Numbered from the stretch's first letter, positions 36,241-40,568 are shown. The stretch: DNA of 64,000 bases from Patescibacteria group bacterium (GCA_041665285.1 JBAYJC010000003.1:65902-129901), one strand, 5' to 3'. Program-made: numbers and translations. The notes: a model not told the origin generated them from the letters alone.

Positions 36241-36269
36241 TACACGAACGTCACGCCGCTCACCACATC
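36241..36269. repeat. 29-bp duplicate of the gyrA 3' end (att-like direct repeat)
   Basis: TACACGAACGTCACGCCGCTCACCACATC here versus TACACGAACGTCACGCCACTCACCACATC at 38101-38129 (the last 9 codons plus stop of gyrA). 28 of 29 positions identical. Confidence 0.8.
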
Positions 36270-36408
36270 CACTACTTTCGCATCTTTCCTATGTTTACCG
36301 CCATAACCGTCGAGTGACTCAACGATTCTGGTGGGTTGCCGAGAACGAGTGCACGTTCTCGGCAGGTTGTGTTTGGGGATCCCGTCTATTGTGGCCCGAC
36401 GGGAAGGG

Positions 36409-37017
36409 TTACAGGCCAGGGACGACCCTGCACGGCTCCTCATCCGAGAGGAGCAACTTCAGGAGCATACCCCAGTCCTTCCCCAACTGGTTGCCAGAGC
36501 CGTAGCAACCGTAGCACTTGTAGTCCCGCAACGTGCCCGTGCCCTGGCACTTGTTGCAGACCGTCCCCTGGAGCGGGAACGTCGCCGGGTACTGGAAGAA
36601 CTTCACGGCCGCTCCGTTGAGGAGCAACCGGACGCCACCGCTATTCCGCAACCACTCGAACGGGTCGAGCATGGCGGACATTGGGTGATCGTGGTGGTTG
36701 GCGTCAGTCACCACCGCGATGTACTGCGCGCCACTCATGGCCGCGAGGAATACGAGGGGGAACCCAAAGGGCATCTCCTGCCCCTCGAACTGCCTCGCCT
36801 CCGGTCCCAGAGGCAACACCGCTCCGGCCCGGCTCTTCGGGCAAGGCATGAGGAGGTCGAGCAGTACGACCTCGTAATCCCCATGCGACCAACGGAGGAG
36901 CGAAAACCCCTCCTCGAAGTTCTTGGCCACAACCACCTCGTAACCGGAGTCCGCGAGGGACTTGGTAGCAGAGGCCTGGTTGTTCGCGCCGTCGTCAATG
37001 ACCAGGATCTTCTTCAT
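36409..37017 (-). CDS. CheY-like receiver domain protein with C-terminal DnaJ-type CxxCxGxG zinc-finger repeats
   Basis: RBS AAGGAG. MKKILVIDDG...VVLLDLLMP fits a receiver fold. C-terminus carries CNKCQGTG and CYGCYGSG. Confidence 0.6.
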   Translation of the reverse strand: MKKILVIDDGANNQASATKSLADSGYEVVVAKNFEEGFSLLRWSHGDYEVVLLDLLMPCPKSRAGAVLPLGPEARQFEGQEMPFGFPLVFLAAMSGAQYIAVVTDANHHDHPMSAMLDPFEWLRNSGGVRLLLNGAAVKFFQYPATFPLQGTVCNKCQGTGTLRDYKCYGCYGSGNQLGKDWGMLLKLLLSDEEPCRVVPGL

Positions 37018-37219
37018 GGTGGACTCCTTGTGTGTCCAGGGCGAAATTGCCCACCGCAAGCGTTGATCTGCTCAACACCTCTGGCGGACAAGCTCTTGTT
37101 GATTGTCGAAAGAACATAGTACCTCATTTTCTCATTTTGGTCAATGGTTGTGGACAAATAAAGTTATAAAATACGATTATTTGGCTAGATTTGGTGAAAT
37201 ACTTTGTTGTACATTATTG

Positions 37220-37248
37220 TTGACAAGCTGTGGATAATGTGGCATTAT
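37220..37248 (+). promoter_or_regulatory. Sigma70-like promoter (TTGACA-17-CATTAT) with a DnaA-box-like TGTGGATAA in the spacer
   Basis: Ends 8 nt upstream of the ATG at 37256, which implies a near-leaderless mRNA. Confidence 0.45.
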
Positions 37249-37255
37249 CTCTCCT

Positions 37256-38056
37256 ATGCCCTCCCCTTACGACCTTCTCTCTCACTTCGGCTTTTCTTCT
37301 GGCGAAAGCGAAGTGTATCTTGCCACGCTCGCGCTTGGACGTCCGAGCGTGGCTGATATTGGCAAAAAAATCGGGAAAAACCGCACGGCTGTGTATTTTC
37401 ACGTCAATAATCTGATGCGCAAGGGCTTGCTCAAAGAAACGCGCCAGGGCAAAAAAAAGCGCTTCCTGGCCCTGCAACCCAACGACCTTTCCGAGCAGTT
37501 CGAGCGCTATGCCACTGACTTCAAAAGCCTGGTCCCACAGCTTGAGGCTCTCAAAAAAATCGATATTGAGGCACCCGTGATCGAGGTTATCGAATCACGC
37601 CGCGGCTATTTTCAGATGTACAACGAGGCCGCTTCTATGCCCGAGGGTTCGATCTTTTACGTCATAGAAGGAAAAACCGCGCTCAAAGGCGAGCTATCAT
37701 TACTCACCAAAGAACAGTGGAGCACATTTTTCAAGCGCATGGCCGAGCGCCGCATCATCACAAAAGGGATTTTCACGGATGAATCTTTGCGCATTCCAAA
37801 AACCGACCTTCCACAAGAATCGCGAGCCGCACTCGGAGGCCGCATCTTTCACCTACACACACTTCCGGAAGCCAGTCTGCCGTTTGAGCAACTACTCTGT
37901 ATTTACGGCGACAAAGTCGCGTTTCTGTTCCCGGAACAAGCCCTAATCATCACCATGAAACACCACGGCATTGCGCAATCCCTTGTGGCCCTTTTCGAAG
38001 GATTGTGGCTGTTCGCAAAACCAGTCCCACAAGCCTGGAAAGAGGTAGGAATATAA
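37256..38056 (+). CDS. TrmB-family transcriptional regulator
   Basis: N-terminal winged HTH: LSHFGFSSGESEVYLATLALGRPSVADIGKKIGKNRTAVYFHVNNLMRKGLL. Confidence 0.7.
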   Translation: MPSPYDLLSHFGFSSGESEVYLATLALGRPSVADIGKKIGKNRTAVYFHVNNLMRKGLLKETRQGKKKRFLALQPNDLSEQFERYATDFKSLVPQLEALKKIDIEAPVIEVIESRRGYFQMYNEAASMPEGSIFYVIEGKTALKGELSLLTKEQWSTFFKRMAERRIITKGIFTDESLRIPKTDLPQESRAALGGRIFHLHTLPEASLPFEQLLCIYGDKVAFLFPEQALIITMKHHGIAQSLVALFEGLWLFAKPVPQAWKEVGI

Positions 38057-38099
38057 AAAGACGTGGTAACAAACCACGTCTTTTTTTGTTTGTCATTTT

Positions 38100-40568
38100 T
38101 TACACGAACGTCACGCCACTCACCACATCGCCTTCTTCCTTGAATCGCATGATGCGTACACCTTGCGTATCACGACCGAGGGATGGTACGGATTTGAATG
38201 GTGTGCGGATCACGATGCCGTTCTTGGAGATGAGAATCAGGTCTTGATCATCGTCTTTGCCGGAAACATACGCGCCGACCACTCCGCCGGTCTTGTTGCC
38301 GACCTTGGCTGTGCGCATGCCAGAGCCTCCGCGACCCTGAGCGCCGTACTCTTTGAGATTCGTGCGCTTACCCATGCCATTTTCCGTGATAACGAAGAGC
38401 TCAAGAAGTCCCTTGTCCGCAACAGATGGGCTGATCACATCCATGCCGATCACGCCATCGCCTGTTTTGGAGAGCTTGATGCCACGCACACCTGCGGCCG
38501 GACGACCCATAGCGCGAACATCTTCTTCGCTAAAGCGAATAGACTGACCAAGCTTGGTGATGAGCATGATGTGATCTGTGCCAGATGAAGGTTTTACCCA
38601 AATGAGTTCGTCACCTTCATCCAAGCCAATCGCAATCAAGCCACTGCGGCGTACATTGTCGAATTCGCCAATCTCGCATTTCTTGATGGTTCCCAAGCGC
38701 GTGACCATCACCAGATATTTTGCGCCTTCAACATGGTCTGTTGGCAAGGTGACTGTCACGCGTTCACCAGGAGACAACTGGAGGAAATTTACAATCGCTT
38801 GTCCTTTGGATGTGCGGCTTCCTGGAGGAAGTTCGTGTGCCTTCAAGCGGAAAACACGGCCGCGAGAGGTGAAGAACATGATGTCTGCATGCGTATTCGT
38901 GCTAAACATCATGCGTACCGTATCCAATTCTTTGGTTTCCAACCCAATCACACCCTTACCTCCGCGATGTTGGGCCTTAAATGTGTCCGGTGGCAAACGT
39001 TTTATGTAGCCATCTTCTGTCAGCATGATGATCGTATCTTCTTGCGGCACCAAATCTTCCATGGAAAACTCGCCAACAGCGTGTGGAATGATTTTTGTGC
39101 GGCGTTCGTCGCCGTATTTCTCGCGTAATGCGACGACTTCCTCTGTCACGATACCAAGGATTTTCTTCGGGGAGTTCAAAATGGACTCAAGTTCGTCAAT
39201 CAACTTCTTTTTCTCTTCCCATTCCTGCTCTACGCGCAGGCGTTCGAGATTTGCCAGCTGTTGCAAGCGCATTTCCAAAATGGCGCCGGCCTGGATTTCC
39301 GTGAGTTTGAACTTTTTGACGAGGTTATCTTTGGCTTCGTCCTTATCTTTGGACTTTTTGATGGTCGCAATGATGTCATCGATATGCAAAAGAGCAATGC
39401 GCAAGCCATCCAAAATATGCATGCGATCCTTTGCACGGTTCAAATCATACGTTGTGCGACGACGAACCACCTCTTTACGATGCGTCAAATACTCTTCGAG
39501 ATGGCCCTTGAGCGTCAAAATACGCGGCTGGATCCCGTCGACAAGACACAGCGAGTTCACACCAAACGATTCTTGCAACTGCGTCATCTTGAACAGCTGG
39601 TTCAAGACTTTTTTGGGATACGCGTCCTTTTTCAGTTCAATCACCACGCGAATACCCTCTTTATTGGACTCATCGCGCAAATCACGAATGCCTTCAATGC
39701 GTTTTTCGTTGACATGCTCGGCAATGCGCTCGAGCAACATGGCCTTATTCACCTGATACGGTAATTCATTCACGATAATTTGAAAGGTTCCGGCTTTTTC
39801 TTCGACGATTTCTGCCACCGCACGCATCACGATACTTCCACGGCCTGTTGCGTACGCGGTTTTGATGGCCTCTTTGTCATAGATGATGCCGCCGGTTGGA
39901 AAATCCGGACCAGGGATGTGCACCATGAGCTCATCGATCGTGATCTCTGGATTTTCGATTAATGCCACAATGCCGTTACACAGCTCCGTGAGGTTATGCG
40001 GAGGAATGTTCGTGGCCATGCCAACCGCAATGCCTACCGTGCCATTCAACAGCAGGTTAGGAAGTTTTGCAGGTAAAACCGCCGGCTCTTGATGCGATCC
40101 GTCATAGTTTGGACGAAAATTGACGGTCTCTTTTTCAATATCAAACAGTAACTCCTCTGCAATGGGTGACAGTTTTGCCTCTGTATAACGCATGGCGGCC
40201 GCACTATCGCCATCAACAGAGCCAAAGTTACCCTGTCCCTTCACGAGCGGATAACGCATGGCAAAATCCTGAGCCATGCGCACCATGGATTCATACACCG
40301 CGGAATCACCATGCGGATGATACTTACCAAGCACTTCACCAACCACGGTTGCAGATTTGCGGAATTTTCCATTTGCGCGCAACCCAATATCCCACATCGC
40401 ATACAAAATACGGCGATGCACAGGCTTCATGCCATCGCGAACATCTGGAAGCGCGCGGTCGACAATAACGGACATCGCATAGTCGAGAAAGGATGTTTGG
40501 ATTTCCTCGACAAGCGAGCGCGGCTCGATTTTACCGTTGATCACCGGAAGTTGGGGTTGTGCGGACAT
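38100..40568 (-). CDS. gyrA: DNA gyrase subunit A
   Basis: [34 protein letters not shown] catalytic Tyr region, and C-terminal beta-pinwheel repeats. Confidence 0.95.

What the first reader, a model, noticed from the sequence alone, without database searches (positions are those of the whole stretch)
36241..38129. 29-bp duplication of the gyrA 3' end brackets a 1.86-kb segment adjacent to the array (att-like scar)
TACACGAACGTCACGCC(G/A)CTCACCACATC occurs at 36241-36269, 31 nt after the array terminator, and again at 38101-38129, where it encodes the last nine codons and stop of gyrA. The ORF track shows the same ..DVVSGVTFV ending for a spurious ORF at 36240-36443.

Direct repeats that regenerate the 3' end of a housekeeping gene are the classic signature of site-specific integration. 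The bracketed DNA carries a GC-rich receiver/zinc-finger gene, an AT-rich intergenic region and a TrmB-family regulator, but no integrase.

Either a small cargo was inserted at the gyrA 3' end, or the array locus and this segment arrived together and only one junction copy is recognisable.
Basis: seen in the sequence. Interest (0 to 1): 0.6.

Follow-up and report, generated by a model that had tools for sequence, protein, structure and literature searches.

The report
Spare gyrA tail: a recombination scar
The 29-base repeat is the leftover last nine codons of a second, slightly different gyrA allele. It was most likely left behind when two alternative versions of the DNA between gyrA and ruvA were stacked by imprecise recombination between related strains, so it is an ordinary scar of genome evolution and not an integrase attachment site.

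Summary
TACACGAACGTCACGCC(G/A)CTCACCACATC occurs at 36241-36269 and 38101-38129 and nowhere else in the 1.23-Mb genome.

The two copies differ only by a synonymous Ser codon (AGC/AGT) and the stop codon (TAG/TAA). Homology ends exactly at the stop.

**Against an att site:**
- No recombinase lies nearby.
- The bracketed TrmB gene is an old neighbour of gyrA (77% orthologue beside gyrA in the nearest relative).
- No TIGR guide pair matches the junctions.

**The likely newcomer:** the adjacent stem-loop TIGR-Tas cassette (31.3-36.2 kb). It is patchy in the family and sits at other loci in other genomes.

**Same scar elsewhere in this genome:** three more gene-end fragments have the same anatomy (lepA 5', an rlmH-like 5', and the 3' tail of a gene called Q here).
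- The lepA' and Q-tail' fragments abut, which shows two versions of one interval stacked in tandem.
- Pooled, the copies differ at 18 synonymous and 1 non-synonymous sites (P about 2e-7 against in-situ decay). The fragments therefore come from diverged functional alleles.

**Best reading (0.55):** one homologous plus one illegitimate crossover between related haplotypes (HFIR-like). The genome encodes ComEC and DprA.

This scan has noted the same kind of scar on other DNA, including other Patescibacteria.

The parts
36240..36269 (-). Orphan gyrA 3' fragment (copy 1): nine codons DVVSGVTFV plus a TAG stop. Read as the end of a second, diverged gyrA allele.
   Evidence: 28/30 identical to the real tail. 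Both differences are silent (AGC vs AGT, TAG vs TAA). Homology stops at the stop codon.
38100..38129 (-). Functional 3' end of gyrA (copy 2): nine codons plus a TAA stop.
   Evidence: The D-x-V-S-x-V-T-F-V* tail is native to gyrA in the closest relatives.
38100..40568 (-). gyrA, 822 aa.
   Evidence: PF00521 + PF03989; 84% identical to the nearest homologue.
36175..36239 (.). Bidirectional terminator (stem 36175-36198, T/A runs to 36210) plus a 29-nt spacer. It ends TIGR array 2 on the + strand and would have ended the gyrA allele that donated copy 1 on the - strand. It now also ends the receiver transcript.
36270..36296 (-). Junction zone: a 27-nt purine-rich stretch (minus strand) between the conserved hairpin block and copy 1. 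The inferred illegitimate joint lies at or near 36269/36270.
   Evidence: Homology of G000 to L062, L063 and L080 ends at the hairpin's distal end. There is a weak 5/8 match to gyrA just inside the tail (D16).
36297..36408 (-). Conserved structured block 3' of the receiver-like gene (three hairpins, none with a T-run).
   Evidence: z = -4.6; 17 pairs, 4 compensatory.
36409..37059 (-). Receiver-like + CxxC protein (216 aa from TTG; 202 aa from the ATG at 37017), GC 63%.
   Evidence: Response_reg 24.6 bits, below cut-off; weak DnaJ_CXXCXGXG. It is a rare family, with 3 homologues in 5.8e9 proteins.
37060..37255 (.). AT-rich intergenic region with divergent promoter-like sites.
37256..38056 (+). 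TrmB-family regulator, divergent partner of the receiver-like gene and an old neighbour of gyrA.
   Evidence: 77% orthologue near gyrA in L060; same divergent pair in L063 and L080.
38055..38099 (.). Bidirectional terminator shared by TrmB (+) and the present gyrA (-).
   Evidence: (I3).
31290..36210 (+). Stem-loop TIGR-Tas cassette: promoter, array 1 (13 units), terminator, promoter, tas (32315-33955), array 2 (32 units), terminator. Probably the later arrival, carrying copy 1 at its edge.
   Evidence: (PDB 9mty).
30685..31245 (-). ruvA, the conserved gene that lies 0.1-2.5 kb downstream of gyrA in the six closest genomes. It is the probable homologous anchor side.

Best explanation
Copy 1 is the 3'-terminal 30 nt of a second gyrA allele from a closely related strain. 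Two versions of the gyrA-ruvA interval existed in the population. Version A was gyrA - terminator A - TIGR-Tas cassette - ruvA. Version B was gyrA - terminator B - TrmB/receiver module - ... . A DNA fragment of one version entered a cell carrying the other, probably by natural transformation. It recombined homologously at one end, in ruvA or beyond or in the body of gyrA. At the other end it was joined illegitimately at 36269/36270, just past the receiver gene's 3' hairpin block. The result keeps both cargoes in tandem and leaves a truncated gyrA tail at the novel joint. This is homology-facilitated illegitimate recombination (HFIR) or a close variant. What is shown: the fragment is real and unique, it is of allelic rather than in-situ origin, no recombinase is present, TrmB is an old neighbour of gyrA, the TIGR-Tas cassette is mobile and patchy, and the same scar type occurs elsewhere in this genome. 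What is inferred: the two parental haplotypes, the route of DNA entry, and which version was the recipient. I lean about 60:40 that the TIGR-Tas side came in later.
For: (1) The two copies differ only at silent positions and homology ends at the stop codon. (2) Three further gene-terminus fragments in the same genome have the same anatomy. The lepA 5' fragment is 118 nt, with 9 synonymous and 0 non-synonymous differences in 36 codons. The Q 3' tail is 17 codons plus stop, with 5 synonymous and 0 non-synonymous differences. The rlmH-like 5' fragment is 97 nt, with 2 synonymous and 1 non-synonymous differences. Each is bounded at the ORF edge with unrelated flanks. Pooled, the count is 18 synonymous against 1 non-synonymous, with P = 1.8e-7 against 'in-situ duplication plus neutral decay'. 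(3) On contig C1 the lepA' and Q-tail' fragments abut, giving Q-[ORF242]-lepA' | Q-tail'-[helicase]-lepA. That order is diagnostic of two versions of one interval stacked in tandem, and both fragments are 8-9% diverged. The helicase cargo is patchy in relatives. (4) The nearest relative L060 (gyrA 84%) has a TrmB orthologue (77% aa) downstream of gyrA, so the 'cargo' is old while the 28/29 repeat must be young. (5) In the six closest genomes ruvA lies 0.1-2.5 kb from gyrA, against 6.85 kb here. (6) Tas homologues occur in 18/126 family genomes, at unrelated loci and between genes that are adjacent in G000, with no recombinase. (7) No integrase is nearby, there are two tyrosine recombinases on other contigs, and no serine recombinase. 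(8) ComEC and DprA are present. (9) HFIR and its orphan-fragment scars are documented elsewhere.
Against: No conspecific genome or read data could be examined, so neither parental haplotype has been seen. For gyrA alone the silent-substitution argument rests on two differences. No reciprocal fragment (for example a ruvA 5' piece) lies beside copy 1. Microhomology at the joint is only suggestive (5 of 8 in a purine-rich patch). Homology ending exactly at the ORF edge in 4 of 4 cases requires the two haplotypes to have had unrelated flanks right up to the start or stop codon. That is plausible with tiny intergenic spacers but is unexplained in detail, and it is also what an element-borne gene-end mimic would show. 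HFIR is rare in the laboratory.
Confidence: 0.55

Rival explanations
1. Site-specific (att-type) integration. The 1.86-kb receiver/TrmB module would be an integrase-less remnant, or a trans-mobilised cassette, of an element that targets the gyrA 3' end and carries a replacement tail. Known parallels are e14 and phage 21 at icd, and CIME or pseudo-SCC elements.
For: Direct repeats bracket exactly one complete module (hairpin, receiver, TrmB, terminator). The identity block equals the coding tail and stops at the stop codon. The differences are silent, as expected for an element-borne gene-end mimic. The module occurs as a discrete, even tandemly duplicated, unit in another genome. A TrmB orthologue near gyrA in L060 with different intervening content could reflect a shared integration site. 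Two relatives have contig breaks at the gyrA 3' end.
Against: There is no integrase in or next to the segment, only two tyrosine recombinases in the genome on other contigs, and no serine recombinase. TrmB divergence to L060 (77%) matches the housekeeping neighbours, which suggests vertical descent. None of the relatives' DNA I hold shows a second gyrA tail. L080 and L063 carry the module with no gyrA tail. Three other fragments, of 56-118 nt at other genes and also without recombinases, would each need a separate lost integrase. The G013 fork has no third branch in the bin.
Confidence: 0.2
2. In-situ event. Either a circular molecule inserted by a single (Campbell-type) crossover within the 29-nt homology, or the insertion came with a long target duplication, after which the copies diverged in place.
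For: Single crossovers of truncated circles do duplicate part of the homologous locus. The repeats are direct and bracket the insert.
Against: 29 nt is at or below the usual minimum for RecA pairing. Neutral decay in place is rejected for the pooled fragments (P = 1.8e-7). The bracketed TrmB is older than the repeat.
Confidence: 0.08
3. Assembly chimera: two strain haplotypes of the gyrA downstream region concatenated by the assembler or binner.
For: The genome is a 19-contig metagenome bin with 2% contamination. A 671-nt stretch at the end of contig C10 is 95% identical to part of C4, which hints at a second haplotype.
Against: The copies share at most 17 exact bases, less than any usual k. 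The flanks are unique on all four sides. The joint needs real bridging k-mers. The window lies inside a 147-kb contig.
Confidence: 0.07
4. RNA-guided event. The neighbouring TIGR-Tas system (a relative of IS110 bridge recombinases) would have guided or assisted insertion at the gyrA tail.
For: Adjacency only. The Science paper speculates that TasA could aid phage integrases.
Against: None of 45 guide pairs matches the junctions or any place in the genome above partner-shuffled and reversed controls. Tas proteins are not known to be recombinases. The G129 cassette has no duplicated neighbour tail.
Confidence: 0.02

Closest known systems
Homology-facilitated illegitimate recombination during natural transformation (S. 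pneumoniae, Acinetobacter baylyi, Pseudomonas stutzeri; reviewed in PMC3240628; original papers cited in PMC5361080, refs 41, 42, 47)
   Same: There is one homologous and one illegitimate joint. No dedicated recombinase is needed. Foreign or alternative DNA is added next to a conserved anchor gene. The organism has ComEC and DprA.
   Different: Here it is inferred from scars only. The donor is a close relative carrying the same locus, so the far end of the donor fragment happens to be a piece of the neighbouring conserved gene, and that creates the repeat. The microhomology at the joint is not clear.
Sequential displacement in Vibrio T6SS effector-immunity clusters, and Rhs/CDI 'C-terminal displacement' with orphaned 3' pieces (PMC5361080)
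   Same: Alternative cassettes stack at one locus and displaced 3' gene fragments are left behind. HFIR is the proposed mechanism.
   Different: Those loci have a constant 5' region that is reused as the anchor and a selective logic (immunity retention). Here the fragments belong to ordinary housekeeping genes flanking a hot spot.
Prophage e14 / phage 21 integration in the 3' end of icd of E. coli (own knowledge: Hill, Gray & Brody 1989)
   Same: The 3' end of a housekeeping gene is duplicated. The copies differ mostly at synonymous sites, and the displaced end remains as a pseudo-fragment.
   Different: Those elements carry their integrase and excise. No recombinase is present here, and the bracketed TrmB gene is an old resident.
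CIMEs and pseudo-SCC elements: integrase-less elements flanked by att repeats at a gene's 3' end (own knowledge)
   Same: Short direct repeats of a gene's 3' end bracket a small segment without an integrase.
   Different: Those derive from, and are mobilised by, identifiable ICE or SCC recombinases that target the same site. No such recombinase or sister element was found here.
Insertion with long target duplication
   Same: Gene units are inserted between direct repeats of tens to about 100 bp without a transposase.
   Different: That model predicts initially identical copies that decay in place. Here the copies differ almost only at synonymous sites.

Membership tests
Site-specific integrative element (att repeats at a gene's 3' end) | Tyrosine or serine recombinase encoded within or next to the bracketed DNA | tested here: not met
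   Pfam scan of all ORFs between and around the repeats. Genome-wide there are two PF00589 hits on contigs C6 and C7 and no PF00239 hit.
Site-specific integrative element (att repeats at a gene's 3' end) | Direct repeats that bracket the element and regenerate the target gene's end | tested here: met
Site-specific integrative element (att repeats at a gene's 3' end) | Bracketed DNA is absent from the site in close relatives (empty site) | tested here: not met
   The nearest relative L060 has the TrmB orthologue (77%) downstream of gyrA. More distant genera lack it. No conspecific genome exists in the collections.
Site-specific integrative element (att repeats at a gene's 3' end) | Excised circle or empty-site junction in the population | not testable with these tools
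HFIR-type recombination scar between related haplotypes | The orphan fragment derives from a diverged functional allele (differences silent), not from in-situ decay | tested here: met
   For gyrA, 2 of 2 differences are silent. Pooled over four fragments the count is 18 synonymous to 1 non-synonymous, P = 1.8e-7.
HFIR-type recombination scar between related haplotypes | Two alternative versions of the same interval lie in tandem, joined at a novel junction | tested here: inconclusive
   This is clear at the C1 locus, where lepA' abuts Q-tail'. At gyrA only one fragment is present, and the second version is inferred from synteny.
HFIR-type recombination scar between related haplotypes | Microhomology at the illegitimate joint | tested here: inconclusive
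   There is a 5-of-8 match in a purine-rich patch just inside the tail (D16). One parent sequence is unknown.
HFIR-type recombination scar between related haplotypes | Host able to take up and process DNA | tested here: met
   ComEC (PF03772, 122 bits) and DprA (PF02481, 242 bits) are present. Presence of the genes is shown, not activity.
Stem-loop TIGR-Tas system (the neighbouring 'array') | Tas protein with a Nop-type RNA-binding domain, next to arrays of hairpin units that each carry two short spacers | tested here: met
   PDB 9mty (the structure cited in the TIGR-Tas Science paper, which I take to be TasR), E = 1.7e-8 over residues 302-406. There are 45 units of stem-GACT-N11-cap-N11-GTC-stem. 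The architecture is as in Faure 2025 and Xu 2026.

The most novel reading that the evidence does not exclude
The gyrA tail and the other ORF-edge-bounded fragments may not be accidents of sloppy recombination. They could be footprints of a regular, recombinase-independent (or trans-acting) way in which small cassettes, TIGR-Tas among them, enter the tiny intergenic spacers of Patescibacteria genomes. In this reading the gene-end copies serve as reusable recombination handles, which would explain why homology stops exactly at the start or stop codon in 4 of 4 cases.
Probability: 0.1. Interest if true: 0.6.

Novelty: new member of a known kind. Interest (0 to 1): 0.25.

Why it matters
It corrects an att-site or genomic-island annotation at an essential gene. 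It gives a relative order of events at the locus: an old regulator module and a younger TIGR-Tas cassette. It suggests that this RNA-guided system was gained by recombination with a close relative and not by an integrase or by its own IS110-like ancestry. Together with three sister scars in the same genome, it adds to the case that ultra-small, probably transformable CPR bacteria gain accessory genes by stacking alternative versions of intergenic hot spots. The direct repeats also predict a simple route for loss of the 1.86-kb module.

Tried and rejected
- **Chance.** Rejected.
- **Longer hidden homology, or a gyrA pseudogene beyond the 29-mer.** None found at DNA or protein level.
- **A third, degenerate att copy near ruvA that would bracket the TIGR-Tas cassette.** None found.
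- **An array guide pair matching the junctions or any site in the genome.** I tested 45 units in both tandem-spacer geometries with gaps of 0-2. The results do not differ from the controls.
- **The exact 29-mer in public metagenome and genome contigs.** Absent.
- **TrmB relatives in those collections.** None found.
- **A second copy of the gyrA tail in relatives.** None in 29 distinct gyrA tails examined.
- **The G013 contig fork at the gyrA tail as evidence of polymorphism.** Only two contigs share the 55-mer, so it is uninformative.
- **A recombination tract inside gyrA from the 3' side.** No shift in divergence.
- **A duplicated neighbour-gene tail at the borders of another TIGR-Tas cassette (G129).** None.
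- **An Rfam family for the conserved hairpin block.** None.
- **A ruvA 5' fragment beside copy 1.** Not present (inspection).
- **A tandem-duplication model for the gyrA locus.** Rejected because the left flanks of the two copies are unrelated right from the stop codon.
- **** was a malformed request with no result.
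Full report
**1. The observation**

The 29-mer TACACGAACGTCACGCC(G/A)CTCACCACATC occurs at 36241-36269 and 38101-38129 with one mismatch. None of 100 dinucleotide-preserving shuffles gave two matches. These are the only two copies in the whole 1.23-Mb, 19-contig genome. The best other ungapped match is 20/29, which is background.

Copy 2 is the end of gyrA (38100-40568, minus strand, 822 aa...[12 protein letters not shown]). 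Copy 1 closes a spurious 67-aa ORF with the same nine residues.

Alignment of 300 nt around each copy shows no further homology. The repeat finder extends the pair only to 37 nt at 89% (D16). In coding sense the copies differ by AGT/AGC (Ser) and by the stop codon TAA/TAG.

The longest exact run shared is 17 nt, so an assembler working with k of 21 or more could not have created the join by collapsing a repeat.

**2. The surroundings**

To the left of copy 1 lie, in order:
- a 29-nt spacer;
- a bidirectional terminator (36175-36210);
- a 4.9-kb locus made of array 1 (about 31310-32160), a 546-aa gene (32315-33955) and array 2 (34059-36160).

The arrays consist of 45 hairpin units of the form stem-GACT-N11-cap-N11-GTC-stem.

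The protein hits Pfam Transposase_20. It also hits PDB 9mty at E = 1.7e-8. 9mty is cited in the TIGR-Tas Science paper, and I take it to be the TasR structure reported there. The architecture matches the 'stem-loop TIGR arrays' of Faure et al. 2025 and Xu et al. 2026. So the 'array' is a stem-loop TIGR-Tas cassette, a published kind of system. Earlier follow-ups of this scan reached the same reading.

Between the two copies lie:
- a structured block of about 110 nt (36297-36408);
- a GC-rich receiver-like/CxxC gene (36409-37059, minus strand);
- an AT-rich region with divergent promoter-like sites;
- a TrmB-family gene (37256-38056, plus strand);
- a second bidirectional terminator.

There is no recombinase in this stretch.

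**3. Comparative evidence**

The organism is an Uhrbacteria-like member of the Patescibacteria (source names). No conspecific genome is available. The nearest gyrA anywhere is 84% identical, and the species-representative relatives are other genera.

In the six closest of those, the ruvA homologue lies 0.1-2.5 kb downstream of gyrA. Here the gap is 6.85 kb. The whole interval 31.25-38.1 kb is therefore added DNA relative to them.

The parts of that interval have different ages:
- **TrmB is old.** In the nearest relative (L060) the order is MBL - small ORF - gyrA, then a convergent 271-aa gene, then a TrmB orthologue at 77% amino-acid identity. That divergence is in line with the housekeeping neighbours. 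TrmB has therefore been near gyrA since before the two lineages split.
- **The receiver/TrmB pair is a conserved module.** The divergent pair recurs in L063 and L080 at 44-52% identity, in an ordinary chromosomal context without gyrA. In L080 it is even tandemly duplicated.
- **TIGR-Tas is patchy.** Tas homologues occur in only 18 of 126 family genomes, with a best identity of 47%. In G051 and G129 the cassette sits at two other loci, each time between genes that are adjacent in G000 and without any recombinase.

A neutral 29-nt copy could not have stayed 28/29 identical over the G000/L060 divergence, because the two gyrA tails differ at 9 of 30 positions. So the repeat is much younger than the TrmB-gyrA adjacency. 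The event that made the repeat is therefore better tied to the arrival of the TIGR-Tas side than to insertion of the 'cargo'.

**4.

- **Empty site.** None is available at species level. The exact 29-mer is absent from the public metagenome and genome contig collections. TrmB probes found nothing closer there.
- **Other copies of the 29-mer.** None.
- **Guide match.** No single guide matched the two junction regions better than expected (15-20 hits at 3 or fewer mismatches against about 19 expected; none at 0-1 mismatches). I then tested all 45 guide pairs genome-wide in both tandem-spacer geometries with gaps of 0-2 bp. The score distribution does not differ from partner-shuffled and reversed controls, and no top hit lies in or near the segment. 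An RNA-guided origin is therefore not supported.
- **Recombinases.** There are two tyrosine recombinases on other contigs and no serine recombinase.

**5. The same scar elsewhere in this genome**

A genome-wide search for short local repeats found three more gene-terminus fragments:

| Fragment | Position | Length | Differences | What it brackets |
|---|---|---|---|---|
| lepA 5' | C1:33103-33220 | about 118 nt | 9 synonymous, 0 non-synonymous in the first 36 codons | 4.4 kb with a DEAH helicase gene |
| rlmH-like 5' | C7:58483-58580 | 97 nt | 2 synonymous, 1 non-synonymous | 1.0 kb with a dsRBD gene |
| Q 3' tail | C1:33002-33057 | 17 codons + stop | 5 synonymous, 0 non-synonymous | the lepA' fragment, promoter B and ORF242 |

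Notes on each:
- **lepA 5'.** Homology starts exactly at the ATG and the upstream flanks are unrelated. The helicase cargo is patchy in relatives (7 of 31).
- **rlmH-like 5'.** Homology again starts exactly at the ATG.
- **Q 3' tail.** Q is the gene at C1:34120-34653. Homology ends exactly at the stop codon.

Pooled with gyrA, the copies differ at 18 synonymous and 1 non-synonymous positions. The null was an in-situ duplication in which the dead copy decays at all sites while the live gene changes only silently. Under it the probability is 1.8e-7. The fragments therefore evolved as parts of working genes in a related lineage, about 3-9% diverged, and were placed beside the resident genes recently.

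**6. The diagnostic locus**

On C1 the lepA' fragment and the Q-tail' fragment lie about 45 nt apart. Read on the minus strand, the order is:

Q - [ORF242] - promoter B - lepA' | Q-tail' - [helicase] - promoter A - lepA.

This is exactly what results when two alternative versions of the Q-lepA interval are placed in tandem. The novel joint is 'start of the downstream gene | end of the upstream gene'. Both fragments are 8-9% diverged, as expected for one donor-recipient pair.

One homologous crossover plus one illegitimate joint explains it, either as HFIR or as circularisation of the incoming fragment followed by a single crossover (definitions and laboratory examples). An integrase model would need an element that mimics two different genes.

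In four relatives the genes upstream of lepA are homologues of C1:19.5-22.4 kb. In G000 these lie inverted on the other side of lepA, so the lepA 5' edge is indeed a rearrangement breakpoint in this lineage.

**7. Application to gyrA**

By the same logic, the two versions would be:
- Version A: gyrA - terminator A - TIGR-Tas - ruvA.
- Version B: gyrA - terminator B - TrmB/receiver module - ... .

G000 is then gyrA - terminator B - module | gyrA-tail' - terminator A - TIGR-Tas - ruvA.

The joint lies within 27 nt of the distal end of the receiver's conserved 3' hairpin block, which is where homology to L062, L063 and L080 stops. Only one fragment is present because the break in the other parent fell in intergenic DNA.

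Terminator A is placed so that it would serve both array 2 and a convergent gyrA. It now also ends the receiver transcript, whose own 3' hairpins lack T-runs.

Which version was the recipient cannot be decided. Because TrmB is ancestral near gyrA and TIGR-Tas is patchy, I lean to TIGR-Tas as the later arrival. The genome encodes ComEC and DprA, so uptake of related DNA is plausible.

**8. Rivals**

- **An att-type element with a gene-end mimic** remains possible (about 0.2). Three features would all fit it: the identity block equals the coding tail, the differences are silent, and the repeats bracket exactly one discrete module. What counts against it is the lack of any recombinase here and at the three sister scars, the old residence of TrmB, and the absence of second tails in relatives.
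- **In-situ duplication** is disfavoured.
- **Assembly chimera** is disfavoured by the 17-nt maximum exact run and the unique flanks, but it needs reads to exclude.
- **An RNA-guided event** is refuted.

No signal of a recombination tract was seen inside gyrA.

**9. What is known, and novelty**

HFIR in transformable bacteria is established. So is its proposed role in stacking cassettes while leaving orphan 3' gene pieces, as in Vibrio T6SS clusters and Rhs C-terminal displacement.

This scan has already recorded the same type of scar on other DNA, several times in Patescibacteria. Those are unchecked notes and I do not count them as evidence.

The present case is thus a new example of a known kind. 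Its specific interest is that one of the stacked cargoes is a 45-unit stem-loop TIGR-Tas cassette.

**10. Limits**

For gyrA alone the allelic-origin argument rests on two silent differences; its strength comes from the sister scars. The exact ORF-edge boundaries in 4 of 4 cases are only partly explained.

Noticed in passing
window 36297-36408 (minus strand); L062:978-1032; L063:2462-2518; L080:5533-5589 and 7852-7908: A conserved structured block lies 3' of receiver-like genes: a 17-pair hairpin with loop consensus TGAGTCnCTCG and 4 compensatory pairs, with a fold z of -4.6 for the region. In L080 two copies are 43/45 identical although the adjacent receiver-like proteins are only about 30% identical. 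There is no Rfam family. It could be a 3'-UTR or small-RNA element, or a DNA site.
   Followed up: partly
G000 contig C1:26888-34653 (outside the window; locus L092): Nested scars: a lepA 5' fragment (C1:33103-33220) and the 3' tail of gene Q (C1:33002-33057) abut each other between a DEAH helicase gene and a GC-rich 242-aa ORF. Two versions of the Q-lepA interval are stacked in tandem, and all 14 differences in 54 codons are synonymous.
   Followed up: yes
G000 contig C7:57007-58580 (locus L093): The first 97 nt of an RlmH (SPOUT) gene are repeated 1.1 kb upstream, starting exactly at the ATG. They bracket a dsRBD-protein gene with its own terminator.
   Followed up: partly
L077 (G051:C1:188000-207000) and L078 (G129:C1:15000-34000): Homologous stem-loop TIGR-Tas cassettes (Tas 46-47% identical; same promoter-array-terminator-promoter-tas-array-terminator layout) are inserted at two other loci, between genes that are adjacent in G000. 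No recombinase and no flanking repeat is present. How these cassettes move is unknown.
   Followed up: partly
L080:5500-9500 (JGI 3300037810, 186-kb contig): The receiver-like/TrmB divergent module is tandemly duplicated (213-aa and 161-aa receiver-like genes, two TrmB genes). Each unit ends with the conserved hairpin block.
   Followed up: partly
G000 C1:96800-97440, C1:166852-166946, C3:59130-59222, C5:58448-58547, C7:28360-28450 and others: A dispersed palindromic repeat family of about 90-100 nt (TCCTCCGG...CCCCTCCTCCGGGAGGAGGGGGATC...), at 88-98% identity and in both orientations. It is MITE- or REP-like.
   Followed up: no
G013:C41:1-55 and G013:C42:2830-2884; G022:C41:1-31: In two relatives the assembly breaks at the gyrA 3' end. 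In G013 there is a 55-nt k-mer overlap that begins inside the tail. In G022 the contig ends 31 nt past the stop. This may hint at strain-level variation at this spot, but no third branch was found in the bin.
   Followed up: partly
G000 C10:43811-44480 versus C4:2788-3457: The last 671 nt of contig C10 are 95% identical to an internal part of C4. This is either a paralogous stretch or a trace of a second, about 5% diverged haplotype in the bin.
   Followed up: no
G000 C2:86007-86064 / 86366-86423 and C4:63528-63586 / 63696-63754: tRNA 3' halves are repeated 359 and 168 nt apart at 100% and 98% identity, the latter including 27 nt of downstream DNA. These are either tandem tRNA genes or further end-duplication scars.
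   Followed up: no
window 31246-31330: The ruvA start codon (31245, minus strand) is only 48 nt from the TTGACA box of TIGR array 1. Any ruvA promoter must therefore overlap the beginning of the array or lie antisense within it.
   Followed up: no
window 10957-11290 and 12617-12950: About 330 nt are repeated 1.66 kb apart at 92-97% identity, at the 3' ends and downstream regions of two tandem paralogous genes (11095-12120 and 12754-13797, minus strand).
   Followed up: no
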